From the NCBI GenBank assembly GCA_017411715.1, contig JAFQPO010000014.1, forward strand, positions 6,161-70,160: DNA of 64,000 nt, given 5' to 3'. The first letter of the stretch is position 1. Each line of letters begins with the position of its first letter. This document shows positions 13,873 through 35,299 of the stretch, one piece after another. The DNA comes from Bacilli bacterium. GTDB lineage: Bacteria; Bacillota_I; Bacilli_A; ML615J-28; CAG-313. A program made the translations under genes and the position numbers. The notes under the pieces were generated by a model. The model searched no databases. It was not told the origin of the DNA and was given only the letters and a program-made list of their open reading frames with translations.

Positions 13873-13994
13873 TTAGATTTGGTCAATAAGTCTTTTTTAA
13901 ATATAATTAAATAAGAGATTTATTGTGTAAATATAGTCCGAAAGGGCTATTTTTTTTATTTTCAGAGCAAAAATATCCTGAAAGATGGTAGGAG

Positions 13995-14090
13995 CTAGTG
14001 GGGATTCGAATAGGGGAGTTGTTCGGACTCGAACTAATTAAAGTATTTTGCATTAGTGGGGACTCGAACCTATAAGAGATAATGGTGGAA
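13995..14090. repeat. family-1 module, partial copy A: degenerate array of tRNA-3'-like units followed by TATAAGAGATAATGGTGG
   Basis: GGGGATTCGAAT / GGACTCGAAC / GGGGACTCGAACC, then the conserved ATAAGAGATAATGGTGGAAAT tail. Confidence 0.6.
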
Positions 14091-14230
14091 ATAAAATTAG
14101 TTTTAGTATATAATATAATTAACTCAACGCTCCGTTGATACGAGGTGTCTTTTTAGTCGCTTCACTTCTATATATTTACTTGATATAATGTTTGTGTAAG
14201 CTTACTAAAAATATATAAGGAGGAATTAAA

Positions 14231-15361
14231 ATGTTAAGAACAGTAGGTTCAACAATTAGAGAGTTAAGAAAGAATAAGAATTTAACTCAAGAAGAATTAG
14301 CAGAAGCTATTAATGTTACACCACAAGCAATTTCAAAGTGGGAGAATAATATTGGTTTGCCAGATATTTCGCAAATAATACCATTAGCAACATTCTTTGG
14401 AGTAAGTACAGATATTATATTAGGAATTGCAGAAAATAATAGAAATGAAGAGATTAAAGAAATTCTAAATGCATGTAATGAAAGAAAACTTAAAAAGGAT
14501 GATATTAATAGCTGGTTGTTAATTCAAGAAACTATAAAGAAATATCCATCTAATTTGGATTTATTGCAAGAAAGTATAGAATATGGGATAGCACTTTCTT
14601 ATAAAGGAAATTATTGTTATAATGAAGAATATGCTGAAAGAATATATAAAGAAACAACTAGACAAGCAGAATTAATTATTAAATATTCAAGTAATGCTAC
14701 TAATATCTTACGTGCTCATATGATTATGGTAATGTTACATTCCTCATTTGGTGATGCAGAAAGTGCAGTAAAACACGCTAATGAATTTCCATGGCGTGCA
14801 GATATGACAGTTCATGCGATGTGTGCATGGATAAATAAAGCTTTTAATGAATTTGAAATAGAAAAAATTAATCTACAAAGGGATTTAGAACAGCATATGC
14901 ATTCATCAATTAATACTTTAGGACTACTAGGTATATCATATGAAAATACTAAAAATTATGATGAAGCATTAAAAATGTATTTTACAATATTGAATATAAT
15001 TAACGAAGTATTTAAAGAAGATGATTATGTACCGGCTTTATATAGATTAGAAATGGGTAACCTTTATGCCATGATTGCTAGAACGTATTTAGAAATGGAA
15101 AATATTGATGAATGTTTGAATTATTTAGAACAAATGGTTGATGTAGAAATTTATCATAATAAGGTAAAAGTAAAAGAATTTAAAATTAAAAATAAATATT
15201 TAGACAAATCAGGCACATATAATTATGCTTATGCTGATTATCGTGCTTTTGATAAAGATAGTGATGTTTTATGTTCACTTGATCTAGAATGTTTCCATTC
15301 TATTAAGGATAATGAAAAATATAAAGAAATAGTAGATAAAGCAAAAAACCATCTTAAATAA
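14231..15361 (+). CDS. HTH-XRE transcriptional regulator with C-terminal TPR-like domain (RNPP/Rgg-like architecture)
   Basis: N-terminus LTQEELAEAINVTPQAISKWEN; about 300-aa helical C-terminus. Confidence 0.6.
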   Translation: MLRTVGSTIRELRKNKNLTQEELAEAINVTPQAISKWENNIGLPDISQIIPLATFFGVSTDIILGIAENNRNEEIKEILNACNERKLKKDDINSWLLIQETIKKYPSNLDLLQESIEYGIALSYKGNYCYNEEYAERIYKETTRQAELIIKYSSNATNILRAHMIMVMLHSSFGDAESAVKHANEFPWRADMTVHAMCAWINKAFNEFEIEKINLQRDLEQHMHSSINTLGLLGISYENTKNYDEALKMYFTILNIINEVFKEDDYVPALYRLEMGNLYAMIARTYLEMENIDECLNYLEQMVDVEIYHNKVKVKEFKIKNKYLDKSGTYNYAYADYRAFDKDSDVLCSLDLECFHSIKDNEKYKEIVDKAKNHLK

Positions 15362-15435
15362 ATAATAAAATAATTTAGAAAAACACTTCACTTTTTTAAA
15401 GTTTTGTTACTATATTAATGAAAGGAGATATCATT

Positions 15436-16992
15436 ATGCAAAATAAAGAACAATTAAAAGAATTAATAGCTAATGAATATTTAAATAGATTCTTAACATT
15501 TTACATAAGTAGAACATCATCAATACAAGATGCTGAAGACTTATCACAAAAGGCTGCCTGTGAATGTTTAGATGCACTTAACCGTGTTGATGAAATAAAA
15601 AATGTTAATGCTTATTTTTGGAGTGTTGCTCATAATGTATATAAGAATTATTTAAATAGAAGAGATAATTATATTCTAGATGATGATTATTGTAAAATGC
15701 AAATTGCAGATATTAGTTCTAAAGAAGAAAGTGAAAAACAAGAATTACATAATGATATTAGAAAATCACTAAGTATCCTTTCAGGTTTATATCGTAAGAT
15801 AATAGTAATGTATTATTATCATGAATTAAAAATTAAAGATATTTCAGAACAACTTACTATTAGCCAAGATATGGTTAAGTATTATTTGTCTAATGGTAAG
15901 AAAAAATTAAAGGAGATTTATAATATGAATAAAGAAATCGGTGAAGTAAGTTTTAATCCTAAAGATTTTTCAATTTATTATTCAGGAATTGACTTTGCTA
16001 GTGTTAATGTATGGGAGTTATTTAAAAGAAAGTTGCCTTGTCAAATTGCATTAATATGTTATGCAAAACCTAAAACAGTTAGTGAAATTGCAAGTGTTGT
16101 TGGATGCAGTAGTTGTTTTATAGAAGATGAACTTTCAATTTTATTAAATGCTGGAGTAATTGTTGAAATAGTAAAAGATAAATATCAAACTAATTTTTAC
16201 ATTATTAGCAAAGTTGAACTTGATGTTGTTGATGAGTTATATAAAAAAATGTATGATGAACATACAAAAGAAGTAATTAAAGTTTTTGATGAACATTTTG
16301 AACAAATAAAACAAACAGGAATTTATAACTATAGTGCAACAGTAGATCAATATAAATGGATATTTGCTGATAGAGTAGCAGATATGGATAGAAGAAATAT
16401 GTTTACTAAAGATTCAGATTATCCTAGAATTTTATCGTGTGGTGCAAGAGGACTAGTGTTTGGACTTGAAGCTCCTACTCCAAAAGGAACTTGCGGACAA
16501 ACACCAACATATTTAAACAATCATACATTATGGGCAAGAGATTTATGGATGATAAAAGGTTATAGTTCAAATCAACCTACTTTAAGAGATAAAAGAACAG
16601 CTCAAACAGTTATTGATGTTTATAATGGCATTATTGATGATAACAAAGAAGAGTTATATGCTTATTTAATTAAGAACAATATTTTAGTAAAAGATAGTGG
16701 CATCTTAAAAACAAATATTGCATATTTAAATAAGGAATTTTTAGAATTAATGAAAACTATTAATAAAGAATTATATATTAAATTAGAGAAAAATACTAAT
16801 GAAATTAAAGAGTATATTACTAAAATAGTTAGCAAATCAATACCTAGTAATTTAAAAGACTATATTAATGGATATGTTATTACACTTATGCAGTTCTTTG
16901 CTGGTAATAAGATTATAGAAGCACTTATTGAAAATGGCTTCTTAAATGATAAAATGAAGAATATACAAATAAGCTATTTTATTGATAAGTAA
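15436..16992 (+). CDS. sigma-70-family (ECF-like) protein with about 340-aa C-terminal extension
   Basis: Region 2 (DAEDLSQKAACE) and region 4 HTH (KDISEQLTISQDMVKYYLSNGKKKLKE); ATG with AAAGGAG RBS; paralog of 25133..26770. Confidence 0.6.
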   Translation: MQNKEQLKELIANEYLNRFLTFYISRTSSIQDAEDLSQKAACECLDALNRVDEIKNVNAYFWSVAHNVYKNYLNRRDNYILDDDYCKMQIADISSKEESEKQELHNDIRKSLSILSGLYRKIIVMYYYHELKIKDISEQLTISQDMVKYYLSNGKKKLKEIYNMNKEIGEVSFNPKDFSIYYSGIDFASVNVWELFKRKLPCQIALICYAKPKTVSEIASVVGCSSCFIEDELSILLNAGVIVEIVKDKYQTNFYIISKVELDVVDELYKKMYDEHTKEVIKVFDEHFEQIKQTGIYNYSATVDQYKWIFADRVADMDRRNMFTKDSDYPRILSCGARGLVFGLEAPTPKGTCGQTPTYLNNHTLWARDLWMIKGYSSNQPTLRDKRTAQTVIDVYNGIIDDNKEELYAYLIKNNILVKDSGILKTNIAYLNKEFLELMKTINKELYIKLEKNTNEIKEYITKIVSKSIPSNLKDYINGYVITLMQFFAGNKIIEALIENGFLNDKMKNIQISYFIDK

Positions 16993-17074: not shown

Positions 17075-17124
17075 TGGTGACTGACCACGGACTCGAACCA
17101 ATAAGAGATAATGGTGGAAATATA
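17075..17124. repeat. family-1 module, partial copy B: single tRNA-3'-like unit (TGGTGACTGACCACGGACTCGAACC) plus AATAAGAGATAATGGTGGAAATAT
   Basis: The unit reverse-complement reads GGTTCGAGTCC-GTGGTCAGTC-ACCA, i.e. T-loop plus acceptor plus ACCA; followed by the -10 TGTGGTATAAT at 17134-17144. Confidence 0.6.
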
Positions 17125-17263
17125 GATAAGATTGTGGTATAATGGGATTAATTCTCAAAAAGTGAGAACACATATCCCTTTCTGTGGGGTGGATTTAAAC
17201 ATTATTTAGTATTATAATATTAGTGTAATTGGCCATTACGATACATTAATAAAGGAGAAAATT

Positions 17264-18346
17264 ATGGATTTAGGAAACAATATTAAATTTTATAGAACAC
17301 AAAAAAAGATGACTCAAGAAGAGTTAGCAGAATTACTTGGGACAACATCTAAATCTATTTCAAGATGGGAGCAAAGTTTAACATATCCTGATATTTCATT
17401 ATTGCCTTTTATTGCAAATATTTTTGAAATAACTGTTGATGAACTATTAGGTGTAGAAAAAATTAAACAAGATGAATATGTTAAAGATTTAAAAAACAAG
17501 GCAAATGAGTATCAAAAAAATAACGATTACGATAATGAGTTAATCTTATGGCAAGAGGCATATAAAAAATTGCCTAACAATGAAGAAATCAAAATTTGTT
17601 TAATTTCAATAATGAATACAATTAATATAGTTACAAATAAGGTTAAGTATTCTAGTGAAATAATTAAATTTGCAGAAAGCATTTTAGAAAAATCAACTAA
17701 TAATGTGAACAGAATTTATGCAACACAATGTCTTTTTGATTTGTTCATTCAAATGAATAATTTTGAAATGGCAGAATATTATTTAAAGCAGTTGCCAAGA
17801 AATCTTTCTTTTACATATGACGTAGCAAAAATTAGATATTTAAAAAATGAAGAATTACTTTATGCTATTCAGAAAAACATCGGTGAATTTATAGATGAAA
17901 TTATTAGAGAATCAGAAAAGATAATCAGAAATAATAACACCAATTTAACGGATGAATATAAAAAAGAATATCTTGAAAGATTAATTAAAATTGAAGAGTT
18001 AGTTTTTGTTAAAGATAATGATTATGGTTATAATGCAATATCAATTATTTTTGACTATATTGAATTGACAAAATTAGAGATTAGAACTACAAATAATAAA
18101 AATAAGGTACTATCATATTTTAAAGAAATGATCTATCCTTTAGAATATATTATTAATTTTAAACCACATAATATATTATCGCCTTTTATGAATAAAGTTC
18201 GATGCGAATTTATTGGAGGCTATAGTAATGCATCTATAGATTTAAAGAAACGCATAATTAAAGAACTTGATAATAATGTATTTGAAAAATATCGTTTTAC
18301 TGATGAATATAAAGAATTAATTTATCAAGTAAATGAATTAAAATAA
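17264..18346 (+). CDS. HTH-XRE transcriptional regulator with TPR-like C-terminal domain
   Basis: MTQEELAELLGTTSKSISRWEQ plus a helical repeat C-terminus. Confidence 0.6.
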   Translation: MDLGNNIKFYRTQKKMTQEELAELLGTTSKSISRWEQSLTYPDISLLPFIANIFEITVDELLGVEKIKQDEYVKDLKNKANEYQKNNDYDNELILWQEAYKKLPNNEEIKICLISIMNTINIVTNKVKYSSEIIKFAESILEKSTNNVNRIYATQCLFDLFIQMNNFEMAEYYLKQLPRNLSFTYDVAKIRYLKNEELLYAIQKNIGEFIDEIIRESEKIIRNNNTNLTDEYKKEYLERLIKIEELVFVKDNDYGYNAISIIFDYIELTKLEIRTTNNKNKVLSYFKEMIYPLEYIINFKPHNILSPFMNKVRCEFIGGYSNASIDLKKRIIKELDNNVFEKYRFTDEYKELIYQVNELK

Positions 18347-18356
18347 AAGGATAAGG

Positions 18357-19163
18357 GTGAAATATATGAAAAAGTATTTTAGTGAAAAATTAAGAATTAA
18401 TCCTATAGAAATAAAAGATAAAGTATATTATTATGGTTCAGAGGATGAGGGAGATCAATTTGGTAAAGAACAATTACAAGAATGGATTAATTCAGGGTGG
18501 TTGTTAAGTAATTGGAATCTAAAAATTAATAAAGGAGAAAGTGACGCATTTACAACTCTTGCGAAAAAAGTAGTAGAAATTAATTTACCATATGTCGAAA
18601 TTGCTTGTGGACCAGGATTAGGACTAACCCCATGTATAAAAAAACAAAATCCATCTTTAGAAGCGTTGATATCAGATGCATGCCCATATGTTGTTGAAGG
18701 GTGGAAAGAAGTAATTAGAAAAAATAATCTTACTTCAAATATAAGTTATGCTTCATTCAGCAATACTAATATGCCTTTTAAAGATAATTCCATTGAAGTT
18801 ATAACATCGTATGTTGGAATTGGATCAACAAGATTCAATGGTGAAAATGGCATGAGTGCGATAAACGAAATTTATCGAGTTTTAAATAAAGGTGGATATT
18901 TAATCACTATTGAAAATGAAATAAGTGATTACAAAATAGTAGATGACATATTTAGTGAGGCCAATAGATTTAATTATTATAAACAATTCGAAAATTATGA
19001 AAGTATAGTTGACCGATTAACTAGAGCAGGTTTTACAATAAGTGAGTTAACATTTCTCGGTAAGAAAAAAGTAACTGAAGATGATAATGAGTTAGGAGAA
19101 CTTTCGAAAGAACAAAAGAAAGATGTTTATTGGAACGTATATGCCATTATTGCGAAAAAATAG
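18357..19163 (+). CDS. class I SAM-dependent methyltransferase
   Basis: Motif I VEIACGPGLG; Rossmann-like pattern. Confidence 0.55.
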   Translation: MKYMKKYFSEKLRINPIEIKDKVYYYGSEDEGDQFGKEQLQEWINSGWLLSNWNLKINKGESDAFTTLAKKVVEINLPYVEIACGPGLGLTPCIKKQNPSLEALISDACPYVVEGWKEVIRKNNLTSNISYASFSNTNMPFKDNSIEVITSYVGIGSTRFNGENGMSAINEIYRVLNKGGYLITIENEISDYKIVDDIFSEANRFNYYKQFENYESIVDRLTRAGFTISELTFLGKKKVTEDDNELGELSKEQKKDVYWNVYAIIAKK

Positions 19164-19175
19164 GAGAAATAGATT

Positions 19176-20897
19176 ATGAAAAAGTATTTATTTGTATTTT
19201 TAATTTTGTTGTTATTAACTGGTTGTAATGTTCAAAATAGTCATTCTCATAATCAATGTCCAGAATGTAGCAAATGTATATCTGAAGATTGTAATGGTAC
19301 TGAAAATGAAAAATGTCAAGGACACCAACTAGTACATACACATACTGAATGTCAAGAATGTGGCAAATGTATTGCAGAAGATTGTGATGGAGCAGAAGAA
19401 CTAAAGTGTAGTGGTCACGAACATCATATATATAAATTAACAATAATTGATGAAGATAATTTAATTTATGATAAGCCTACTGAAACAAGTTGTGAATCAG
19501 ATACTAAAATTGTGATGCACTCTCACCCAATAATAGATGCTGATTTAGCAATGTATATAAATGGTGAGTTTCATTCTATTCAAAATACAATAATGGTAAA
19601 CGATGAAACTGTTTGGGAATATTCATTTATAATGCCAGAAAGAGATACTACTATTGAATTTAAGACTCAAACATTAGAATATTTTGATGTAAAAACTGTT
19701 CTTGGTATTCCCTCATTAACAAGAGAAGATATTTTAAGAATAATTTATCATACTATTAATTTAAGTAGCGAACCCATACCGGGTAGTTTAAGAATAGTAA
19801 TTAGTACTACAGATTATGAAGATATTACTTATATGTTATGTTTTTTAGATGCAAATGTGGTTGAAGATAGAAGTAATAATTGGCAAGAGGATGCTGGTAG
19901 TTGTGAGAAGTATTCAATTTGTACAATTGATAAAAAATACGATTTTGAAATAATTAATGGATATATATCAGTTAATAATAAACACTATAAACTTCTAGGG
20001 TATGGACCTGGCATGAGTTATGGAATTATTACTTCTGCTTTTAATACTAATTTAGATTCATATGAGGCATATACATTAGATGGCACAAAAATTGGTGATT
20101 TTAATGGTTTATCTGAATTTGAGTTTTATGAAATTAAGGCTCCTTTAACAGGTGTAGATGATTATGGATATTTAGAAACTGAGTTTGGAAGAATTTATAT
20201 TCACGATTCAAAGACATTTTACATCAAAGATGGCGAAAACTATACTTACTATAAATTAATTTGGGAATGGGAAAAAGACTTTAGCGATATATTTAACAAA
20301 CACACACATACCGAATGTGAAGAATGTGGAAAATGTATAGCAGAAGATTGTAATGGAACTGAAAATGAAAAATGTCAAGGCCATCTTATTATTACTGATG
20401 CAATACCAGTACCTATTACAAGTATTACTTTCAATAATGGAAATGAATTAGAAGAATTTATAAAAAATCATGAAAACTTTAATAAATGGGTCTACATGAA
20501 TGAAATTATTAAAAATAATGAAACTATAAATGTTTATAATAAAAGCTATAGTTTTAATTATGATGAAGAAAAAGATGGCAAATATATTAATCCATATCTT
20601 ACAATAAGTTTCGCATTATATAGTGAAGTATTAGGAACAGATACTGGAGATGACGATGTTTTATATCATTCTATTTCATTTTTAATTAATATTAGACCTA
20701 ATGATTTAAAAGATAACATTAGTTATAAATTTTGCAAATATAGTAATAATAAAAATATGTACAATAACGTAGTGCTTATTTACAGTGGAGATAATGTTAT
20801 TGGAGAGGCATATTATTACACAAAGCTAGATGTTACTAAAAACTGGATAATTGAATTTTTAAATGAAAACTTATTAATGCCAATTAAAATAAAATAA
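19176..20897 (+). CDS. lipoprotein with three Cys-rich repeats (CxxCxKCIxEDCxGxExxKCxGH)
   Basis: Lipobox LLLTGC. Repeats at aa 28-52, 59-82 and 383-406 are near-identical at the DNA level; no recognised domain. Confidence 0.6.
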   Translation: MKKYLFVFLILLLLTGCNVQNSHSHNQCPECSKCISEDCNGTENEKCQGHQLVHTHTECQECGKCIAEDCDGAEELKCSGHEHHIYKLTIIDEDNLIYDKPTETSCESDTKIVMHSHPIIDADLAMYINGEFHSIQNTIMVNDETVWEYSFIMPERDTTIEFKTQTLEYFDVKTVLGIPSLTREDILRIIYHTINLSSEPIPGSLRIVISTTDYEDITYMLCFLDANVVEDRSNNWQEDAGSCEKYSICTIDKKYDFEIINGYISVNNKHYKLLGYGPGMSYGIITSAFNTNLDSYEAYTLDGTKIGDFNGLSEFEFYEIKAPLTGVDDYGYLETEFGRIYIHDSKTFYIKDGENYTYYKLIWEWEKDFSDIFNKHTHTECEECGKCIAEDCNGTENEKCQGHLIITDAIPVPITSITFNNGNELEEFIKNHENFNKWVYMNEIIKNNETINVYNKSYSFNYDEEKDGKYINPYLTISFALYSEVLGTDTGDDDVLYHSISFLINIRPNDLKDNISYKFCKYSNNKNMYNNVVLIYSGDNVIGEAYYYTKLDVTKNWIIEFLNENLLMPIKIK

Positions 20898-20899
20898 AT

Positions 20900-20973
20900 C
20901 AATCAAGCCAGTTAACAACAAAAACGTTAGCTGGCTTTTTAAATAGTAGAAATAAGTGAGGAAATGTGGTATA
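20900..20973 (+). repeat. family-2 terminator/promoter cassette, copy 1
   Basis: GCCAGTTAAC..GTTAGCTGGC hairpin plus TTTTTAAATAGTAGAAATAAGTGAGGAAATGTGGTATAAT. Confidence 0.75.
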
Positions 20974-21055
20974 ATTGATAATATTAAGGGATGAAACCAA
21001 TTGTTGCATTGACTAACTAATACTTAGTGAGTATAATGGTGGTAGAGGTGATAAA

Positions 21056-28129: not shown

Positions 28130-28470
28130 TTTTTTAAAAAAATAATGTTTTTGTAAAAAGAATTTTAAGAAACTTGTAAAATTATGAAACTATATATCGA
28201 ATATAAACTATGATAGCTTTATTAGACTGTATAAAAGTAGTAAATAAGAGCACAATAGAATTCCAATTTAAATTTGATATAATAATTCAAGAATATTTAT
28301 AAAATGCCAGATAGACTATTCTAAATGGCTTTCTTTTACATTAAAATATGAATCAAATGATTTACAAAAATAAATTTATGTGATATAATATATTTGTCAA
28401 TTGGAGAGACACTCATTACTAAAAATGTTATTGACTACATTGTTTATCATAATAAAGGAGGAGACACTCA

Positions 28471-29016
28471 TTGGAAAAAACAGAAGGTAAAAAAACCGTT
28501 ATTGTCATTGATGAGCAAGGTAATAAATTAGAATCTACGTACCCTAAAAGGGCAAAGGGTCTTATTAAGAATGGTAGGGCACGAGTTGTAGATGAAAATA
28601 CTATATGCCTTGTGGACCTACCAAAACATATAATTTTGGAGGAAAATAAAATGAATAATAACAATATAAATTTAGAAGAAAACAAAGAAGTAAAAATTGA
28701 TTTAGCTTACATCATGAATAAGATTGATGAAATTACTAAAATTAATTTGGAATTAGTTAGCAATAAAGATTTAGCTGATATGTCAGTTGTTCTAGGTGCA
28801 AAAAATCCTGTTCAATGCATTTGTGAAACTAATAATAAGATGATTGATTTCTTACAAGATATTTACAAATCACTTCAACCAAAACAAGAATCAGAATTGA
28901 ATACACAAATTATAAATGGTTTAACTAATGCTTTGATGAATGCAATTGAAGAAGAAGCTGACCAATCAGTAATCGCACATATTACTGACACTCTTGCTAA
29001 GTATATTGAAAAGTAA
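28471..29016 (+). CDS. hypothetical protein (TTG start)
   Basis: AAAGGAGGAG RBS; terminator AAGGATTTAGCCGATATGGTTAGATCCTTTT downstream. Confidence 0.4.
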   Translation: MEKTEGKKTVIVIDEQGNKLESTYPKRAKGLIKNGRARVVDENTICLVDLPKHIILEENKMNNNNINLEENKEVKIDLAYIMNKIDEITKINLELVSNKDLADMSVVLGAKNPVQCICETNNKMIDFLQDIYKSLQPKQESELNTQIINGLTNALMNAIEEEADQSVIAHITDTLAKYIEK

Positions 29017-29205
29017 TTAAAAAAATAAAGGATTTAGCCGATATGGTTAGATCCTTTTGTTATTAAGTAAAGCACTTTTTGTTCAGTTGCTAAAATAAGG
29101 TTATTACGACAAAAAGAAACATTTAACACTTTTTATTTTGTAAATTAAGAAAAAAGCACTTTCTGATTTGTAAAACGTTAAAAAAACACTTTTTGTCGTA
29201 ATGAC

Positions 29206-29432
29206 ACATTTTTTGAAATCTATAGGTCTTCTGAAAAGAGGATCTATTTTTTATTTTTAAGGACTATTTTACTTAAAATATAGTGAAATAGTCTCTTTTT
29301 TTACCTGTTTATGAAACATTTAGATTTAAACAATAGGTGAGACTAACCACGGACTCGAACCATTAACTTACGGGATTCGAATGTTAGGTTCTGATGGGAC
29401 TCGAACCTATAAGAGATTGATGATTTGACATG
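29206..29432. repeat. family-1 module, full copy E
   Basis: ACATTTTTTGAAATCTATAGGTCTTC...; hairpin GGACTATTT..AAATAGTCTC plus T-run; units GACTAACCACGGACTCGAACC / ATTAACTTACGGGATTCGAATG / TTAGGTTCTGATGGGACTCGAACC; then CTATAAGAGA and TTGACA..TGGTATAAT. Confidence 0.7.
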
Positions 29433-29646
29433 ATATATTTACTAATGGTATAATATATATAAAGAAATAAAACTTTTTGTCACCTTTTGCTATGTTAAAT
29501 TGTTTTATATATGAAAGGATAAAAGTTCTCTTAATTAGAGATGATATTCTAGTGCATAAATATAAAATATGTATAATCATATAAATAAGTAAAATATTTC
29601 CAACAAAATGGACTTTTATTTGTTATATTAAAAGGAGGTTTATTTA

Positions 29647-30726
29647 ATGAAGAAAATATTAGTTAGTATGTTTTTATTAGTATTTGGATTATGTTTAGTT
29701 GGGTGTGAAAATATTGGTAATAGTAAAACTTATGAATTAACAATTCAAAATCAAACCGAATATGAATTAATAGGAATAAAGAATGAATATAAAGGAGATG
29801 AAGAAGTAGAAATCAAAATGATATATGAAGATGATGTATGTACTTTTGCATTTTTAGATGGTGAATTATTGGGTGAACTAACTGGAATTGATTCAATAAA
29901 ATTTAATATGCCTGCAAAAGATTCAGTATTGACAATCAGTTATTCGGAAGAAATATATAAAGTAAATGTTATTGATAATTTTGACTTAATAGAAGAAGTG
30001 CTTAATGATTATTACGCACCTGAAGAAACAATAATCTTTCATGTATCACATGAACTATATGATAATATTACAGTAATTATTAATGGGAAAGTAGAAGAAG
30101 GAATTGATCCGTTAATTGGAACTAATAACTTCAAAACATATTTAGTTAGAATGTCCGAAGGAGAATGTGAAATAAAAGTAACTGTTAATGGACTAAGTGA
30201 TTACTCATGTAATGATAATTTACATCATTATGAAGAAGAAATAAAAAAAGTTGATAACTCGTATATTAAAGAATCTACGTGTAAATTATGTGGTGAAATA
30301 GTTCAAGAAGAAATAACTAAAATTAAATTAGATACTATAATTTTATATTTTGGTAGTTATTCAGATGATAATTCATTTGTATTATTTGTAAAGGAATATA
30401 ATTTATCAAATAGAAAATATCTAATTATAGATAATGTTGAAGCATATTATGAGATATATCCTAATATTCCACGTATGAATAAAGAATTATTGAGTGATGA
30501 AGAAGCAGATGAATTCTTTAAAAATAATATAATGGTATTACATATAAGATATATTAGTGGTACTTTAGATTTTGTCCCTGTTAATTATTATTATAACACA
30601 ATACTTAATAATATAATTATGGAATATACAAATGATGTTTCTGGTGACTATATAACACAATTTTTAGGTAATACCCTTGATATAATTACAATTCCTAAAA
30701 AGTACTATAATAAAATTAATAAATAA
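29647..30726 (+). CDS. lipoprotein, function unknown
   Basis: Signal plus lipobox LCLVGC. Confidence 0.5.
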   Translation: MKKILVSMFLLVFGLCLVGCENIGNSKTYELTIQNQTEYELIGIKNEYKGDEEVEIKMIYEDDVCTFAFLDGELLGELTGIDSIKFNMPAKDSVLTISYSEEIYKVNVIDNFDLIEEVLNDYYAPEETIIFHVSHELYDNITVIINGKVEEGIDPLIGTNNFKTYLVRMSEGECEIKVTVNGLSDYSCNDNLHHYEEEIKKVDNSYIKESTCKLCGEIVQEEITKIKLDTIILYFGSYSDDNSFVLFVKEYNLSNRKYLIIDNVEAYYEIYPNIPRMNKELLSDEEADEFFKNNIMVLHIRYISGTLDFVPVNYYYNTILNNIIMEYTNDVSGDYITQFLGNTLDIITIPKKYYNKINK

Positions 30727-30729
30727 CCA

Positions 30730-30801
30730 ATCAAAGCTAGTTAACCAAAAAGTTAGCTGGCTTTTTAAATAGTAGAAATAAATGAGAAAATGTGGTATAA
30801 T
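30730..30801 (+). repeat. family-2 terminator/promoter cassette, copy 3
   Basis: AAGCTAGTTAACC..GTTAGCTGGCTTTTTAAATAGTAGAAATAAATGAGAAAATGTGGTATAAT. Confidence 0.75.
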
Positions 30802-30824
30802 ACTTTCATAAGAGGTGCATTAAT

Positions 30825-31157
30825 ATGAAAGAACTAACAACAAAAGAACAATATGAATATTTTGAAGAAACATTTAATAAATTTAATACTACTCTTTTAA
30901 ACCAAAGTGATGATGATATTGAATATATAATTTTTGAAGATATTATAGATAATGTTGTTTCATTTTTGCATTCAATAGTGATAGATAAATTATTAGAAGA
31001 AAAATATATTAATAGTGAAGTATATGATTTATGTTGTGATTTTAGAAAACAATTTCTAGTGTTAGAAGAAAAATCATTAAGAAGTGCAACTGAAATTAGA
31101 AAAAGTAAAGAATGGCTAGACTTAATAAAATTAGCTGATGAGATTAAGAATAAATAA
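30825..31157 (+). CDS. hypothetical small soluble protein
   Basis: ORF directly downstream of a family-2 cassette. Confidence 0.4.
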   Translation: MKELTTKEQYEYFEETFNKFNTTLLNQSDDDIEYIIFEDIIDNVVSFLHSIVIDKLLEEKYINSEVYDLCCDFRKQFLVLEEKSLRSATEIRKSKEWLDLIKLADEIKNK

Positions 31158-31168
31158 TAGGAGAGCTT

Positions 31169-31348
31169 ATGATAAAAAGTATTTTGAAAATTATATTATG
31201 TTGCATAATAGCATATCCTATTTGCTATTTACTAACACAATTAGAAGGACTTAAAACTAATTATAATTGGGCTGTTATTTTAGTGATTGATTTAATAGTG
31301 TGTATTGGCTTAATTCTATATACAATATTGAATAAAAAGAATAAATAA
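31169..31348 (+). CDS. small membrane protein (59 aa, two TM helices)
   Basis: Not in the ORF track. MIKSILKIILCCIIAYPICYLL...; RBS AGGAGAG. Confidence 0.4.
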   Translation: MIKSILKIILCCIIAYPICYLLTQLEGLKTNYNWAVILVIDLIVCIGLILYTILNKKNK

Positions 31349-31425
31349 CTAATTAAGTCGGTTAGCCAACTTTGGGTTAGTTGGCTTTATAAATAGTAGA
31401 AATAAATGAGTAAATGTGGTATAAT
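31340..31425 (+). repeat. family-2 terminator/promoter cassette, copy 4 (variant hairpin)
   Basis: AGCCAACTTTGGGTTAGTTGGCT plus TTTATAAATAGTAGAAATAAATGAGTAAATGTGGTATAAT. Confidence 0.7.
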
Positions 31426-31466
31426 AGTTATGCATAAATGATTGTATAAGAAAGGATATTGATTAT

Positions 31467-32018
31467 ATGATAATAGAGAATAAAATTGATAAAATAAAAC
31501 TTCAAGATAGTATGAAACTATTTATTAAGTATGCCATGCTAGATCAGACAAAGAAAGTAAAAAAATTGATAATTATAAGCTTAATAGCTTGTGTAGTTGT
31601 AATTTTAGGTAATATTGTTTTACAAAAGTTATATATTTTAATATTTGGTATATTTGGAATTTTATTTAATATTTTCTTAATATTTAGATATAGAAATACT
31701 CAAAGAAAACAATATGAGAAAGTACTTAAAGAGCAATTAAATAAATATGGTGAAATAGATATCATAACTAGAAAACATGTTTTTGATAGCCGTAAAATGT
31801 TACTTGAAATTAAAAACGGTGAAAATATAGATACATTAAATTTTAATTTTGATAATTATTATAAGTTATGGATTGAAGAAGATAATAAAGTTGTTGTTAT
31901 ACAATTTGGTGAAAAACCAAATGGTAAATTAGTAGTAATTTATTGTGATGATGTAAATGGATTTAAACAATATTGTGTTATTAATAATATTAATTTTGAA
32001 ATAGTAAAGACTAAATAA
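31467..32018 (+). CDS. hypothetical membrane protein
   Basis: Two TM helices after residue 30. Confidence 0.4.
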   Translation: MIIENKIDKIKLQDSMKLFIKYAMLDQTKKVKKLIIISLIACVVVILGNIVLQKLYILIFGIFGILFNIFLIFRYRNTQRKQYEKVLKEQLNKYGEIDIITRKHVFDSRKMLLEIKNGENIDTLNFNFDNYYKLWIEEDNKVVVIQFGEKPNGKLVVIYCDDVNGFKQYCVINNINFEIVKTK

Positions 32019-32021
32019 CTA

Positions 32022-32093
32022 AACAAAGTCAGTTAACCAACGTAAAGGTTAGCTGGCTTTTTAAATAGTAGAAATAAATTAGGAAATGTGGTA
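32022..32093 (+). repeat. family-2 terminator/promoter cassette, copy 5
   Basis: GTCAGTTAACC..GGTTAGCTGGCTTTTTAAATAGTAGAAATAAATTAGGAAATGTGGTATAAT. Confidence 0.75.
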
Positions 32094-32193
32094 TAATCAT
32101 AGCATGCAACAAATTAGATACATAATGTAAATACTTGTTGCTGTAATATATAAATGATATATTATATACTAAAATCGAAAGGAGGATATTATT

Positions 32194-32610
32194 ATGACAA
32201 TAGCAGAAAAGATAAAACAATTGAGAAAAGATAATAGCATGACTCAAGAAGATTTAGCAGAAAAGTTAAATGTATCTCGTCAAACCATTTCTAAATGGGA
32301 AACAAGTGTTACAATACCAGATGCGGATAATATAGTAGCAATTTCTAAATTGTTTAACATCACAACTGACGAATTATTAGATTATAGGGTAGAAACTGTT
32401 CAAAAGAAAAAACAATTTATAATGGATATGGCAGTATTGCTATTTGGAATTATTGGATTTATCGTATTTGCAATTTTGCTTATGACTAATCAAATAGACG
32501 AAACATCATCAGTAATTACAATTAATGGTTATGGAATTGCAGCAATTCTTTTCTTAATACTAATTATTGCTTTTATCATAGTAATGATTAAACGAAATGC
32601 AAAAAAATAA
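32194..32610 (+). CDS. membrane-anchored HTH-XRE regulator
   Basis: MTQEDLAEKLNVSRQTISKWE plus two TM helices. Confidence 0.6.
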   Translation: MTIAEKIKQLRKDNSMTQEDLAEKLNVSRQTISKWETSVTIPDADNIVAISKLFNITTDELLDYRVETVQKKKQFIMDMAVLLFGIIGFIVFAILLMTNQIDETSSVITINGYGIAAILFLILIIAFIIVMIKRNAKK

Positions 32611-32839
32611 ATTAAAGATTTTAGTAATAGTATTGTTTTTTGTGCTTATAACAACTTTTGGAATTTATCTAGTTAAAACGATTATTGAGTGTATCAATAC
32701 TTATAACGATATTACGACATCATTTCCATGGTATACTCCTATATTAATTAATAGTTTAATATTTGTTATTCCGCTAATAATTGAGATACTTGTTCTAGGA
32801 TATTTTTATATACGATTAAAACAAAAAAATAATAAATAG
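32597..32839 (+). CDS. small membrane protein
   Basis: Overlaps the upstream stop; two TM helices. Confidence 0.4.
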   Translation: MQKNKLKILVIVLFFVLITTFGIYLVKTIIECINTYNDITTSFPWYTPILINSLIFVIPLIIEILVLGYFYIRLKQKNNK

Positions 32840-32845
32840 ACATAG

Positions 32846-32917
32846 AGGTCAGTTAACCAATAAAAAAGTTAGCTGTCTTTTTAAATAGTAGAAATAAATG
32901 AGGAAATGTGGTATAAT
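32846..32917 (+). repeat. family-2 terminator/promoter cassette, copy 6
   Basis: GGTCAGTTAACC..GTTAGCTGTCTTTTTAAATAGTAGAAATAAATGAGGAAATGTGGTATAAT. Confidence 0.75.
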
Positions 32918-32939: not shown

Positions 32940-33464
32940 ATGAATGATTATATAAATTTATGCGATGTCGATATAAGAAAGCAAACTAAGACTTTTAAAT
33001 TAGTGTTTATTATACTATCTATTATAGTAGTTATATTATTAATAGTCGGTATTTTTAATAAGTATGTTTTTGGAATTGGGTTGGCTTTCGTAATTACTCC
33101 TATTGCTGCTTTTGGTTCTTATTTTTGGTGCTTACAAAAATATGAAAAATTAGCGAAAATTGAAAATGATGAGTTATGTATCTATAAATACAATAAGAAA
33201 TTAAAATTTAAATTAGACCTCAAAAACATTAAGTTTTCAAATTACATTGTTCGTTTGAGTGGGTTTGGTGCATACGACACTGTTGTTGAAAGAGAATGTT
33301 TAGTGCTTCATTTCAATGAATTAGAAAAATGGCGTTTTTATAAAGAAAATGTAATTGATTATAGATGTTGTAATAAAGATAATTCAGTAGTTGTGATACA
33401 TAATAAAGTATTGACTGAATTCATTATGAAGAACTATGTATTTATAAATCATAAAAGCGTATGA
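32940..33464 (+). CDS. hypothetical membrane protein
   Basis: Two TM helices near the N-terminus. Confidence 0.4.
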   Translation: MNDYINLCDVDIRKQTKTFKLVFIILSIIVVILLIVGIFNKYVFGIGLAFVITPIAAFGSYFWCLQKYEKLAKIENDELCIYKYNKKLKFKLDLKNIKFSNYIVRLSGFGAYDTVVERECLVLHFNELEKWRFYKENVIDYRCCNKDNSVVVIHNKVLTEFIMKNYVFINHKSV

Positions 33465-33616
33465 CATTATCATAAAATAAACACACAGAATTTTTTAAAT
33501 GTTTTTTAATCAGTAGAAAATTAAGGAAAATATGATATAATAATATACGATAATTTGAAAAAGTACTTAATTATAAAATTATATTATTGAGAGTGCACTA
33601 ATTATAGGAGGATTAG

Positions 33617-34342
33617 ATGTTTGAATTAAATCATTTGTTATGGTTATTAATTTCAACTTTTGTTATTACTTTCCATATATTAATAAATATTAAATATAAA
33701 CCATCTTTTAAAGCTAATTTAACTGCTTTATTTATTGTTGCGGTAATATCTGAAATTACTAAAATATTAATAAATATGGAATCACTTGTAGGAGATACAT
33801 TTGATACATCAGGGACATATTTAAATTATGAATCTTTACCATTTCATTTATGTGCAATGCAAATATTTTTTATTACCGCATTAATGTTTTTTGTCAAAAA
33901 TGAAAGTACAAAATCAAAAATTCTTGGTTTTATGGTGCCAACTATGTTAATGGGTGCTGCGCTTGCATTGTTTATCCCTACTAATGGTACTGATTTTACA
34001 GATGCACAAGTTTATCAATATTTCATATTCCATTCTTATTTAATAGCATTTGCGGTATACTTATTATATAGTAAAAATGTAGTTATTACATTTAAAGTTA
34101 TGTTTAGAAATATAGCGTATTTATTAGGACTAGGCGTAATATGCATTTATATTAATGGAATGTTTAGTTTTGCGGCTACTAATTTTATGTTTATATCTAG
34201 ACCACCGATGGAAAATTTACCTTTTCTGAATTTAAATCAAGGCTGGCATATGTATTTTGCGAAACTACTAATTATTTTAATGGTTCTTATGGTTTCGTTT
34301 CATTTGCCTTTTGCATTGTACTATCGTAGAAATCAAAAATAA
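33617..34342 (+). CDS. polytopic integral membrane protein (6-7 TM helices)
   Basis: Hydrophobicity pattern; preceded by a degenerate family-2-like promoter at 33491-33541. Confidence 0.45.
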   Translation: MFELNHLLWLLISTFVITFHILINIKYKPSFKANLTALFIVAVISEITKILINMESLVGDTFDTSGTYLNYESLPFHLCAMQIFFITALMFFVKNESTKSKILGFMVPTMLMGAALALFIPTNGTDFTDAQVYQYFIFHSYLIAFAVYLLYSKNVVITFKVMFRNIAYLLGLGVICIYINGMFSFAATNFMFISRPPMENLPFLNLNQGWHMYFAKLLIILMVLMVSFHLPFALYYRRNQK

Positions 34343-34355
34343 AGGAATTTATAAA

Positions 34356-35299
34356 ATGAAAAAATTATTTGCTTTTGTTATTTTGTAAATTACACTAATA
34401 TAATTATCAAGTTGTTTCAATGATACTATAAAAACTTGACCTACAGAAGAAGTAAATGAATTTGTTTTGTTTGATTTTCCATCTTACGAAGGGAAAGCAA
34501 GATTTGAACTACGACTTGATCCGTTTGTTTTATTAGAGAAGAAATTACAATGTTGATTTCTAAAACAAATAAAAGTCAATATGATGCTTATATAAATAAG
34601 CTATTATCCTTAGGATATGTTGAAAAAGAAGATGTATATGAATCTGATTATGAGTTTGATTATATTTCTCTTAAAGATGTATATGAAAAGACTTTAGAAG
34701 ATGGTAGCTTTGTTTCTATTAATGTTCATTATAGTGATTATGGAAACAATGATATTCATTGCTACATCTATGTTGAATATGAACCTGCTACTGGACCATA
34801 TGAAAATTGGCCAGTATTTGATATGTCAATGTTTGCGGATAGTGAAAAACTTATCTACAACGGAGGAACAACATATGATTATCATAATCAAACTGAAGAA
34901 ACACGTAAAAGTATCAAGCAATTATTAAATTATTCTTATGTGGCAAACATTTTTATGGGGCATAACTTAACTGAAGAAGAAAGAGAAGCTCTTTCAAAAA
35001 TGCAAGGGACAAGAAAATTAGTTGATTCAGTCTATGATATGTATATAGCGGTATTTAATACGAATCAAGAAGAACTGTTAGAATATACATCGAAGTTTGA
35101 TGATTGGGAAGTTGTTGTTGAAAATGATTGTTATGCTAAAACGGTTGGCGATATGACTACAATTGTTAGTTTATGTATCCATATCCTGATAATCCTAAAA
35201 ACATTCAAATTTATATTGAAAAATATCCAAATGAATATTATGAATATTTTTATAAGGAATAAAAAAAACTGCTCTTTCGAGCAGTTTTTCATTTTATAA
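34356..35299 (+). pseudogene. probably frameshifted lipoprotein gene (intact-looking segment 34550..35250)
   Basis: MKKLFAFVIL* signal-peptide stub at 34356; protein-like text continues in a shifted frame (DFPSYEGKARFELRLDPFVLL); the 3' end of the ORF reads through into the terminator, while an alternative frame gives a natural-looking YPDNPKNIQIYIEKYPNEYYEYFYKE*. Confidence 0.35.

What the first reader, a model, noticed from the sequence alone, without database searches (positions are those of the whole stretch)
13873..35299. Roughly 21.5 kb accessory region inserted at smpB-tRNA-Leu with no integrase, organised as blocks separated by the repeat modules
All genes between tRNA-Leu(GAG) (13786-13872) and the convergent permease terminator (35262-35290) are on the + strand. 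They are mostly regulators, lipoproteins and small membrane proteins of unknown function, and they are partitioned by family-1 modules at 14.0, 17.1, 25.0, 27.0 and 29.4 kb. The smpB/tRNA junction is a classic island hotspot, yet no tyrosine/serine recombinase, transposase or phage gene is present. Each block begins with a regulator (XRE/TPR, sigma-like) immediately after a module. This fits tandem accretion of related mobilisable islets whose recombinase is elsewhere (in trans) or has been lost.
Basis: partly seen in the sequence, partly recalled or inferred. Interest (0 to 1): 0.7.

Follow-up and report, generated by a model that had tools for sequence, protein, structure and literature searches.

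The report
tRNA-anchored accessory gene array with repeat modules
The stretch after tRNA-Leu is a variable chain of accessory genes joined by a conserved ~270-base unit (two terminators, three tRNA-end look-alikes, then a promoter) that in related gut bacteria starts exactly at the end of many different tRNA genes, which suggests an undescribed way of stacking and swapping gene blocks.

Summary
tRNA-Leu(GAG) lies at 13786-13872 and every credible gene up to the bidirectional terminator at 35262-35290 is on the + strand. The five family-1 modules are real, and no recombinase, transposase or phage gene is present. GC is 25.8% against 28.9% in the flanks.

The locus is accessory. A relative with 65% SmpB identity carries a different array of more than 38 kb at the same smpB-4HBT-tRNA-Leu(GAG) site, yet shares one sigma-like gene at 86%. 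Blocks of the window recur at 91-94% identity in other orders, with breakpoints at module edges.

The 25-nt "core" is not an att core. It is an internal, inverted tRNA-3'-end look-alike. The real junction lies about 150 nt to its left. About 45 modules in gut metagenomes begin exactly after the CCA of at least 9 different tRNA/tmRNA genes, or after ...ACA or a displaced tRNA-Gly 3' fragment.

The module holds two + strand terminators, a conserved motif and three tRNA-like repeats, and it abuts a sigma-A promoter. A prophage with two large serine recombinases sits at one such junction in a relative.

Best reading: tandem accretion and shuffling at modules by recombinases acting in trans. This mechanism is inferred, not shown.

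The parts
13786..13872 (+). tRNA-Leu(GAG), the anchor of the array
   Evidence: ARAGORN; Rfam. The same tRNA after smpB-4HBT anchors a different array in relative L183.
13873..14129 (+). Module M1. The left part is degenerate. The right part holds three inverted tRNA-end look-alikes (14002, 14025, 14060), then TATAAGAGATAATGG, a -35 TGGAAA and a -10.
   Evidence: Sequence; nhmmer hit 14024-14129, E 1e-14; inverted repeat I16 with the tRNA-Leu 3' end.
14231..16992 (+). Block 1: XRE-HTH/TPR regulator (14231-15361) and an ECF-type sigma-like protein with a long C-terminal domain (15418-16992)
   Evidence: Pfam; NCBIfam. The XRE-TPR gene is 91% (nt) / 94% (aa) identical in L224, where it follows internal modules rather than a tRNA.
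17075..17146 (+). Module M2, a short form. Repeat a, here with the complement of ACCA, is fused to repeat c. It is followed by TAAGAGATAATGG, a -35 and a -10. The two terminators are missing.
   Evidence: The same a-c fusion occurs in L186, L192 and L239.
17264..24816 (+). Block 2. Genes: XRE regulator, methyltransferase, Cys-repeat lipoprotein, XRE+TM protein, second Cys-repeat lipoprotein, S41 peptidase, nucleotidyltransferase-like protein. Compact terminator-promoter joints at 20892-20975 and 22315-22398. Terminator at 24725-24750. Block end ...GTAGCAATTAGACA at 24810-24823.
   Evidence: Pfam; repeats D2/D3; terminator scan. The same block end precedes modules in L212 and L224.
24824..25066 (+). 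Module M3, full form: terminator 1 (about 24840-24870), terminator 2 (24878-24907), mid motif 24924-24945, and repeats a, b, c (24952-25022). It ends with TAAGAGATAATGG; the -35 (25038) and -10 (25061) follow.
   Evidence: In L086/L087/L089 a prophage end with two large serine recombinases abuts at window 24817. The right boundary at 25040/25041 comes from comparison with L176.
25133..26854 (+). Block 3: sigma-like protein (25133-26770), terminator 26785-26811, and block end CTTATAAAAGACGTATCATTTATGATGTAATGAAACA
   Evidence: Pfam; NCBIfam. It is 94% identical in L176 and 86% in L181, although the core genes of the L181/L183 contig are only 50-67% identical.
26855..27100 (+). Module M4, full form, followed by a canonical TTGACA-18-TATAAT promoter
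27242..29208 (+). Block 4: unknown 295-aa protein, a 181-aa protein with only an RRXRR/IscB-like N-terminus, terminator 29027-29057, and iteron-like ACACTTTTTG repeats at 29060-29200 ending in ...GTCGTAATGACACA
29209..29454 (+). Module M5, full form, followed by a TTGACA-18-TATAAT promoter
29647..32917 (+). Block 5: a lipoprotein and small membrane/XRE proteins, separated by four compact terminator-promoter joints (30718-30801, 31342-31425, 32014-32097, 32834-32917)
   Evidence: The lipoprotein gene is 94% identical in L258, where an R2-type end plus a full module follows it instead of a compact joint.
32940..35299 (+). Distal genes (174-aa protein, TMEM164-family protein, 249-aa ORF) and the bidirectional terminator at 35262-35290. 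Whether they belong to the variable array is open.
   Evidence: Pfam; sequence. They are retained at 86-99% in L269, which is apparently the same species and whose contig ends at the last compact joint.

Best explanation
What it is. The stretch from 13.9 kb to at least 32.9 kb is a variable accessory gene array anchored at the 3' end of tRNA-Leu(GAG) in an uncultured ruminant-gut Bacilli genome. It is a one-directional chain of self-contained transcription units, each with a promoter, one to seven genes and a terminator.

The joints. Units are joined either by compact terminator-promoter joints or by a conserved module of about 215 nt (about 270 nt with the adjoining promoter). In related gut Bacilli the module starts exactly after the CCA of many different tRNA and tmRNA genes. 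It consists of:
- two intrinsic terminators for the + strand;
- a conserved A/T-rich motif;
- three direct repeats, 22-24 nt apart, that are inverted look-alikes of a tRNA T-arm plus acceptor end.
It abuts the -35 of a sigma-A promoter.

Shown:
- the anatomy;
- that the module insulates upstream transcription and sits in front of co-oriented genes;
- that the locus and the order of blocks differ between lineages, with breakpoints at module edges;
- that one block moved between distant lineages;
- that a prophage with two large serine recombinases occupies one junction.

Inferred:
- blocks are added at the junction '...CCA/ACA | module' by site-specific recombinases supplied in trans, that is tandem accretion;
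- the recombinase genes are not retained in the array;
- homologous recombination between modules then deletes and reshuffles blocks;
- the three tRNA-like repeats serve as protein-binding sites, either for a recombinase accessory factor or for an activator of the adjoining promoter.
For: Anatomy.

Terminators. Terminator 2 has 5 of 12 pairs with compensatory changes, and G-U pairs that only work on the + strand. Terminator 1 exists in three self-complementary allelic forms.

Orientation. 33 of 33 first downstream ORFs, and 68 of 71 ORFs within 4 kb, are co-oriented with the module.

Placement at tRNA ends.
- The module starts exactly at tRNA/tmRNA ends. The mid motif lies 98-101 nt after the end of Gly-TCC, Glu-TTC, Lys-CTT, Leu-GAG, Leu-TAG, Leu-CAG, His-GTG, Ser-GCT and tmRNA, always in the same orientation.
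- Internal copies follow ...ACA, or displaced tRNA-Gly 3' fragments. L215 has 15 of 17 nt.

Same locus, different content. L183/L181 carry smpB-TPR-4HBT-tRNA-Leu(GAG)-module, then GNAT, Fic, Abi_2, MazE/YafQ, KilA-N, MazG, IS110, sigma x2 and S41 over more than 38 kb.

Horizontal transfer. The sigma-like block is 86% identical, against SecG 67%, RNase R 50%, SmpB 65% and 4HBT 57% on the same contig.

Shuffling.
- Window blocks occur at 91-94% identity in L224, L258, L176 and L086 with other neighbours and with breakpoints at module edges.
- The same promoter-leader unit follows modules anchored at tRNA-Lys, tmRNA and tRNA-Leu and at internal sites.

Recombinase lead. The prophage end in L086/L087/L089, with two large serine recombinases, abuts window position 24817. 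L279 is a second contig with tandem serine recombinases upstream of a module.

Composition. GC is 3 points lower than in the flanks.
Against: - No recombinase was linked to cassette movement.
- ORFs just before four internal junctions are not recombinases, and no recombinase family is among the 25 Pfam families listed for 104 neighbouring ORFs (those with at least two members); single hits were not shown.
- No excised circle or empty site was observed.
- Among contigs carrying the identical SmpB, the first cassettes are the same wherever the contigs reach. Mobility within the species is therefore not shown.
- Breakpoints fall at several places: the left edge, repeat c, the -35 and a terminator. 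That also fits homologous recombination.
- The window has no direct repeat of the tRNA-Leu 3' end.
- Internal junctions end in ACA, which no tRNA explains.
- The role of the tRNA-like repeats is untested.
Confidence: 0.5

Rival explanations
1. Homologous recombination only. The modules and compact joints are conserved terminator/promoter linkers. Gene blocks are swapped between strains by ordinary homologous recombination in these linkers after DNA uptake, as with minimal mobile elements or capsule-locus exchange. No dedicated recombinase is involved.
For: - Breakpoints lie at different positions within or next to modules.
- a-c fusion forms look like recombination between the GGACTCGAACC repeats.
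- No recombinase lies near most modules.
- Modules are 63-90% identical, which is enough for homologous exchange.
Against: - It does not explain how a 215-nt unit came to start exactly after CCA at 9 or more unrelated tRNA/tmRNA genes.
- It does not explain the displaced tRNA-Gly 3' fragment in front of a module.
- It does not explain the sharp ...ACA | TTTTTT junctions.
Confidence: 0.25
2. The module is itself a small non-autonomous mobile element or intergenic repeat that inserts after tRNA genes and after terminators. The gene blocks between modules are not units of mobility, and the region is an ordinary variable locus peppered with this repeat.
For: - The module is discrete, with the same left end everywhere and a right end just before the -35.
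- The sigma-like gene occurs with a module upstream (window) and without one (L176, L167, L169, L173).
- It is absent after the two other tRNAs of the window.
Against: - No case was found where the same two flanks occur with and without the module. Every difference also changes the neighbouring genes.
- There are no convincing terminal inverted repeats or target duplications.
- No transposase is associated with it.
Confidence: 0.13
3. The 25-nt tRNA-like piece is the att core of islets that integrate into a cognate tRNA with 3' end GGTTCGAGTCCGTGGTCAGTCACCA, using an integrase encoded elsewhere.
For: - The piece is a good tRNA 3'-end look-alike, with the complement of CCA at 17.1 kb and in L176 M2/M3.
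- It is the best conserved part of the module, above 90%.
Against: - It is inverted relative to tRNA-Leu(GAG) and to every anchoring tRNA.
- It lies about 150 nt inside the module, not at block boundaries.
- No complete tRNA lies at the far end of the region.
- No cognate tRNA occurs among 66 tRNAs in the fetched loci.
- In viral contigs it occurs only within a module.
Confidence: 0.07
4. The region is ordinary core DNA that expanded by local duplication of regulator and lipoprotein genes together with their promoters.
For: Paralogues occur inside the region: two sigma-like genes, four XRE genes and two lipoproteins with shared repeats.
Against: - The paralogues are only 27-31% identical (58% over the shared N-terminal ~80 aa of the two lipoproteins), while the modules are 63-80% identical.
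- The locus content differs completely in a relative.
- The sigma-like block is far more similar than the core genes are.
Confidence: 0.03

Closest known systems
Tandem accretion of integrative elements and cis-mobilisable elements (CIMEs) at tRNA/tmRNA genes. Examples are the streptococcal tRNA-Lys(CTT) arrays and the Dehalococcoides ssrA islands, reviewed in PMC5704250 and PMC3146451.
   Same: - Arrays sit at the 3' end of a tRNA/tmRNA gene.
- Units lack recombination genes.
- Repeated sequences lie at every junction.
- A displaced tRNA 3' fragment is seen in a relative (L215).
- An autonomous element, a prophage with serine recombinases, occupies one junction.
   Different: - The repeated junction is a ~215-nt composite unit that starts after the tRNA, not a short copy of the tRNA 3' end.
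- The same unit follows 9 or more different tRNA/tmRNA genes.
- The tRNA-like pieces are inverted and internal.
- No cognate integrase was identified.
Staphylococcal cassette chromosome (SCC) composite islands at rlmH/orfX, mobilised by the CcrA/CcrB pair of large serine recombinases (PMC4723332)
   Same: - Head-to-tail stacks of cassettes, many without recombinase genes, sit at one chromosomal site.
- The related element carries two tandem large serine recombinases of 429 and 528 aa.
- Some block ends carry TATCAT-NN-ATGA, the dyad also found in the SCC direct repeat.
   Different: - The anchor is a tRNA end, not rlmH.
- The recombinases score far below the CcrA/B/C cut-offs (127-141 bits against cut-offs of 700-900).
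- The SCC-like dyad is present only at one class of block ends, and its central dinucleotide varies.
Chromosomal integrons and attC-only clusters (CALINs)
   Same: - One-directional arrays of small cassettes (0.7-8 kb) are separated by a repeated structured site.
- Cargo is rich in defence-type, toxin-antitoxin and acetyltransferase genes.
- Cassettes are shared between distant hosts.
   Different: - There is no IntI and no attC architecture.
- Each unit has its own promoter and terminators.
- The host is a low-GC Firmicute lineage, where integrons are essentially unknown.
Classical tRNA-linked genomic islands, as catalogued by Islander/TIGER (PMC4383910)
   Same: - The region is adjacent to a tRNA 3' end.
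- Its composition deviates from the flanks.
- Its content varies between relatives.
   Different: - There is no integrase.
- No direct repeat of the anchoring tRNA's 3' end flanks the region.

Membership tests
Classical tRNA-integrated genomic island (tyrosine-integrase type) | Lies directly next to the 3' end of a tRNA/tmRNA gene | tested here: met
   tRNA-Leu(GAG) ends at 13872 and the region starts at 13873.
Classical tRNA-integrated genomic island (tyrosine-integrase type) | Carries an integrase gene | tested here: not met
   Pfam on all ORFs of at least 100 aa gives none. There is no serine-recombinase remnant by tblastn.
Classical tRNA-integrated genomic island (tyrosine-integrase type) | A direct repeat of the anchoring tRNA's 3' part marks the far end | tested here: not met
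   The only tRNA-Leu-like piece (14006-14034) is inverted (I16). No direct copy lies at any junction. The signature is met in a relative at tRNA-Gly (L215).
Classical tRNA-integrated genomic island (tyrosine-integrase type) | Variable between relatives, with deviating composition | tested here: met
   L183/L181 carry a different array at the same locus. GC is 25.8% against 28.9%.
CIME / accretion array | Units bounded by att sites and devoid of recombination or transfer genes | tested here: inconclusive
   Units lack such genes. The junctions are conserved (...ACA | TTTTTTGAAATC), but their use as att sites is not shown.
CIME / accretion array | A related autonomous element uses the same site | tested here: inconclusive
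   A prophage with two large serine recombinases abuts the 25.0-kb junction in L086/L087/L089. Its other end was not recovered.
SCC-like composite island | CcrA/CcrB or CcrC recombinases | tested here: not met
   None is in the window. The pair in L086 scores 127-141 bits against CcrB (cut-off 900) and 55-65 bits against CcrA (cut-off 700).
SCC-like composite island | An integration-site direct repeat at every boundary | tested here: inconclusive
   A TATCAT-NN-ATGA dyad occurs at R2-type ends only: window 26.83 kb, L176, L192, L257 and L258. It is absent at the tRNA and at the other junctions.
Integron / CALIN | IntI next to attI with a common promoter | tested here: not met
   No tyrosine recombinase is present.
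Integron / CALIN | attC sites (imperfect palindromes) at cassette ends and promoterless cassettes | tested here: not met
   Modules are terminator pairs plus direct repeats. Each is followed by a promoter-like -35/-10.
Tn7-like element at a tRNA attachment site | tnsABC/tniQ genes and TGT...ACA ends with clustered transposase sites | tested here: not met
   No transposase genes are present. The module starts with TTTTTTGAAATC. Its three repeats lie 150-210 nt from the end. Target duplications were not tested.
MITE / REP-like intergenic repeat | Short unit with terminal inverted repeats and target duplication, present or absent between the same flanks | tested here: inconclusive
   The unit is discrete. 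No clear inverted ends or duplications were found, and no module-only polymorphism was found.

The most novel reading that the evidence does not exclude
Gut Bacilli may possess an undescribed, integron-like platform for stacking and exchanging self-expressed gene cassettes. These would include defence, toxin-antitoxin, acetyltransferase, regulator and surface-protein genes. The platform would be anchored at the 3' end of almost any tRNA/tmRNA gene. Its recombination and insulation site would be the ~215-nt module, and the three inverted tRNA-3'-end mimics in it would be the recognition device, for a trans-acting recombinase or for targeting tRNA gene ends.
Probability: 0.2. Interest if true: 0.85.

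Novelty: new variant of a known kind. Interest (0 to 1): 0.62.

Why it matters
If the junctions are true recombination sites, this would be a cassette-capture system in low-GC Gram-positive gut bacteria, a group in which integrons are essentially absent. It would explain how defence and surface-variation genes move between distant lineages of uncultured gut Bacilli.

The module is also a compact natural part: a double terminator followed by a promoter. It is a ready marker for finding variable loci in metagenome-assembled genomes, where such arrays often break assemblies. Several contigs here end at the tRNA or at a repeat.

The inverted tRNA-end look-alikes beside real tRNA genes of many identities are unexplained and can be tested directly.

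Tried and rejected
The nearest representative has only 64% identity and no tRNA after smpB, so it was of little use.
- Permease as a right-flank anchor. The exact protein was not on record because of start-codon choice. Homologues at 78% sit in unrelated contexts, so there is no synteny. The 95% homologue only shows retention of 32.9-35.3 kb in what is apparently the same species.
- Rfam. Only the three tRNAs pass at gathering level. On the module only chance-level hits appear, HPnc0260 at E 1.5.
- A structured RNA in the tRNA-like part. The minus strand gives z -1.3. The plus strand gives z -2.9, which is explained by the terminators. No complete tRNA can be drawn.
- Recombinase remnants in the window: none.
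- The other prophage junction, searched with the window's left-of-junction sequence in viral contigs: none.
- The module in the phage and plasmid databases: no match.
- A cognate tRNA for repeat a: none among 66 tRNAs in the fetched loci. The collection scans were exhausted.
- The sigma-like gene as a constant partner of the module: rejected. Homologues at 80-83% identity have no module upstream.
- Recombinases next to internal junctions in other contigs: the neighbouring ORFs are AAA_13, ClpB-like AAA, RNase III-like, LRR/Flg_new and XRE proteins.
- A literal SCC identity for the recombinase pair: rejected by the NCBIfam cut-offs.

Full report
SOURCE AND OBSERVATION

The window has about 28% GC. 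It matches, at 99.995-100%, contigs assembled from ruminant gastro-intestinal metagenomes. The nearest species representative is an uncultured 'Bacilli bacterium' whose SmpB is only 64% identical.

tRNA-Leu(GAG) lies at 13786-13872, after RNase R, smpB and a 4HBT thioesterase gene. Between 13873 and 35299 all ORFs of at least 100 aa are on the + strand. They encode:
- four XRE-type regulators, one with clear TPR repeats;
- two ECF-type sigma-like proteins of 524 and 545 aa;
- a methyltransferase, an S41 peptidase and a nucleotidyltransferase-like protein;
- lipoproteins and small membrane proteins.

No recombinase, transposase or phage structural gene is present. A bidirectional terminator lies at 35262-35290, in front of a convergent permease gene. 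GC is 25.8% in the region and 28.9-29.0% on both sides. GC skew does not change. The five 'family-1 modules' are real. One correction applies: only three of the five modules are followed by a regulator.

ANATOMY OF THE JOINTS

I aligned about 40 distinct copies from the window and from metagenome contigs. From left to right the full module reads:
- TTTTTTGAAATCT;
- hairpin 1 with a T-run;
- hairpin 2 with a T-run;
- the motif TTTATGAAACATTTAGATTTAAAGAC;
- repeat a, GGAGACTGACCACGGACTCGAACC;
- repeat b, ATTAACTTACGGGATTCGAAyc;
- repeat c, TTTAGTTCTGATGGGACTCGAACC;
- TATAAGAGATAATGG.

A -35 (TGGAAA or TTGACA) and an extended -10 follow directly.

Both hairpins are terminators for the + strand. 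They use G-U pairs that would be C-A mismatches on the other strand. Hairpin 2 keeps pairing through compensatory changes at 5 of 12 pairs, and hairpin 1 exists in three self-complementary allelic forms.

Read on the minus strand, repeats a-c are look-alikes of a tRNA T-loop, T-stem and acceptor 3' strand. The copy at 17.1 kb and two copies in L176 even have the CCA. Repeat a is the best conserved part, above 90%. The repeats are 22-24 nt apart and lie at about -52 to -108 from the start point implied by the -10.

Short forms, such as the one at 17.1 kb, are a-c fusions. A second kind of joint has six copies in the window. It is a gene terminator followed at once by the same type of promoter, without a module (family D2).

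Paralogous genes inside the region are only 27-31% identical. The exception is 58% over the shared N-terminal ~80 aa of the two Cys-repeat lipoproteins. The modules are 63-80% identical, so the modules are not relics of a recent segmental duplication.

WHERE THE MODULE OCCURS

A scan of metagenome contigs with the mid motif returned 79 stretches, of which about 45 are true modules. They come from ruminant and human gut samples.

In every case where a tRNA is nearby, the tRNA is on the same strand and the module begins immediately after its CCA. The mid motif starts 98-101 nt after the end of the gene. This holds for tRNA-Gly(TCC), Glu(TTC), Lys(CTT), Leu(GAG), Leu(TAG), Leu(CAG), His(GTG), Ser(GCT) and tmRNA, and also for L176 and L183.

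Copies without a tRNA are preceded by one of two things:
- sequences ending in ...ACA, such as ...GTAATGACACA and ...TTAGACA;
- a displaced 3' fragment of tRNA-Gly. L215 has GGTCCCGTCGCCTGCTCCA, which matches the tRNA at 15 of 17 positions. L193, L203 and L213 have ...TCGCTCCA.

The two other tRNA genes of the window have no module. All 33 first ORFs after modules, and 68 of 71 ORFs within 4 kb, are co-oriented with the module. Neighbouring genes are mostly GNAT acetyltransferases, AAA_21 ATPases, C-5 methylases and restriction subunits, XRE regulators and sigma-like proteins. The module has no match in the phage and plasmid collections.

IS THE REGION ACCESSORY AND MODULAR?

Yes, at the level of lineages.

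(a) Same locus, different content. One contig of a relative has SecG at 67% identity, RNase R at 50%, SmpB at 65% and 4HBT at 57%. It carries smpB, a TPR gene, 4HBT and tRNA-Leu(GAG), followed at once by a full module. Then come GNAT, Fic, XRE, Abi_2, MazE/YafQ, KilA-N, MazG, an IS110 transposase, acetyltransferases, NUDIX, MerR, two sigma-like genes, an S41 peptidase, a LytTR two-component pair and ABC transporters. This spans more than 38 kb, almost all on one strand.

(b) Horizontal transfer. One of those sigma-like genes is 86% identical to window 25133-26770, far above the core genes. That block has therefore moved horizontally.

(c) Variable contexts. Homologues of that gene at 80-94% identity sit in entirely different contexts.

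(d) Blocks in other arrangements.
- The XRE-TPR block is 91% identical in L224, where it follows two internal modules and the end of the nucleotidyltransferase block.
- The lipoprotein block is 94% identical in L258, where a full module follows instead of a compact joint.
- The sigma block is 94% identical in L176, behind an XRE gene and without a module. L176 is a second array of the same design, anchored at tRNA-Lys(CTT).

(e) Mobile promoter-leader-gene units. The same unit is found behind modules anchored at tRNA-Lys, tmRNA and tRNA-Leu and at internal positions.

Within the species itself I saw no variation. Contigs carrying the identical SmpB show the same first genes as far as they reach. 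Several assemblies break at the tRNA or at a repeat.

RECOMBINASE LEADS

Three viral contigs (L086/L088, L087/L272, L089/L274) hold the end of a prophage: a holin, unknown genes, and two tandem large serine recombinases of 429 and 528 aa. These are followed by a module and a sigma-like gene that match window 24817-25570 at 91% identity.

The phage-host junction is ...GTTGTTTTAC|TTAGACATTTTTTGAAATC. It lies 7 nt to the left of the module start, exactly where the window has the end of block 2.

A second contig, L279, has tandem serine-recombinase genes followed on the same strand by HNH, GNAT and Fic genes, then a module and a sigma-like gene. The recombinases resemble CcrB, XisF and CcrC only distantly.

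One class of block ends carries ACGTATCAT-NN-ATGA. This shares the dyad TATCAT-NN-ATGA with the SCC direct repeat GAA[AG][CG][TA]TATCATAA[GA]TGA (PMC4723332). I treat this as a lead only. No recombinase was found next to four other internal junctions, or among the 25 Pfam families listed for the genes around modules (those with at least two members).

INTERPRETATION

Shown:
- the module terminates incoming transcription and sits in front of a promoter and co-oriented genes;
- it starts exactly at tRNA/tmRNA ends of many identities;
- its edges are where arrays differ;
- the locus is a site of accessory, partly horizontally acquired genes;
- an element with serine recombinases uses one junction.

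Inferred: blocks are added at '...CCA/ACA | module' by site-specific recombinases acting in trans, and modules then allow homologous deletion and reshuffling.

The displaced tRNA-Gly fragment in L215 is the classical accretion signature. The acceptor stems of the anchoring tRNA-Leu(GAG) genes co-vary 5' with 3' in the two lineages where the whole gene was read (the window and L183). The joint there therefore lies at or after the CCA, not inside the tRNA.

Its proposed att core is not. That 25-mer is an internal, inverted repeat of the module with no cognate tRNA in sight.

Homologous exchange alone is the main rival. It fits the scattered breakpoints but not the precise placement after many different tRNAs. 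A third possibility is that the module itself is a small mobile repeat. I found no module-only polymorphism, but I cannot exclude it.

WHAT REMAINS UNEXPLAINED
- The function and origin of the three inverted tRNA-end look-alikes.
- The ...ACA ends of internal junctions.
- The iterons TGAAACATTTTGTAG at some block ends, which resemble the mid motif.
- The right-hand limit of the array.

NOVELTY AND SCORE

tRNA-linked islands, accretion arrays, CIMEs and SCC composite islands are known (PMC5704250, PMC3146451, PMC4383910, PMC4723332). The following features are not described in anything I could find:
- a conserved 215-nt terminator/repeat unit that abuts a promoter and starts exactly at the end of many different tRNA/tmRNA genes;
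- the same unit also punctuating one-directional cassette arrays;
- inverted tRNA-end mimics inside that unit.

I rate it a new variant of a known kind. Interest is 0.62 because the mechanism is not demonstrated.

Noticed in passing
window 19239-19419, 20298-20385, 21661-21841: Two lipoproteins (19176-20897 and 21592-22269) carry two or three copies of a ~31-aa Cys/His-rich unit just after the lipobox (H.H.EC.ECGKCIAEDC.G.E..KC.GH). There is no Pfam match. It may be a metal-binding module.
   Followed up: no
window 28471-29016: A 181-aa ORF whose first ~50 residues resemble the RRXRR / IscB N-terminal region (Pfam E 8e-5, NCBIfam IscB E 4.5e-4). It has no nuclease domains, so it looks like a truncated remnant.
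   Followed up: partly
window 26812-26854; L176 4845-4885; L192, L257, L258 block ends: Block ends of one class carry ACGTATCAT-NN-ATGA(T/C). This is the same TATCAT-NN-ATGA dyad as the SCCmec integration-site repeat. The central dinucleotide varies (TT, TC, AC, TA).
   Followed up: partly
L176 6690-6790 and 8040-8095; L199, L241, L245, L259; window 29060-29200 (degenerate): Two to four iterons, TGAAACATTTTGTAGTGTAA, spaced about 30 nt apart, precede some modules. The module's own mid motif, ATGAAACATTTAGATTTAAAGAC, is a further copy.
   Followed up: partly
window 13370 and 13831: Two independent assemblies end at window 13370, inside the 4HBT gene. Another ends inside tRNA-Leu, and the 85%-SmpB relative (L185) also ends inside the tRNA. 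This suggests strain branching or repeats at this point.
   Followed up: no
window 15418-16992 and 25133-26770; L167-L182: The sigma-like proteins have ECF-type regions 2 and 4 plus a ~380-aa C-terminal domain. They form a large family (497 hits). The genes often lie next to giant Flg_new/LRR surface-protein genes. The homologues of 25133-26770 read upstream (L086, L167, L169, L173, L176) share a conserved leader, GCGAACCATTTTTAA...ACACTATATAGGTGTAAGAGGTAAA.
   Followed up: partly
window 20892-20975, 22315-22398, 30718-30801, 31342-31425, 32014-32097, 32834-32917: Six compact joints consist of a conserved terminator (GCYAGTTAAC..GTTAGCTGGC) followed directly by the promoter AAATAGTAGAAATAAATGAGGAAATGTGGTATAAT. 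The promoter matches the sequence after the module (AATGGTGGAAATA-N15-TATAAT). The terminator is the one found in front of R2-type block ends.
   Followed up: partly
L279 7600-12594: After the module, the sigma-like gene and the following 4 kb show only short ORFs under table 11. This could reflect a different genetic code or a poor assembly in that viral contig.
   Followed up: no
L183 7831-8277; L239, L242, L246, L257 first genes after modules: A small GNAT acetyltransferase (M[AV]RIA[KR]N...) with a conserved leader, AAATTAGAATTTG, is the first gene after the module in L183, and the same conserved leader follows the module in seven or more other contigs. GNAT is the commonest Pfam family around modules (8 of 104 neighbouring ORFs).
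   Followed up: partly
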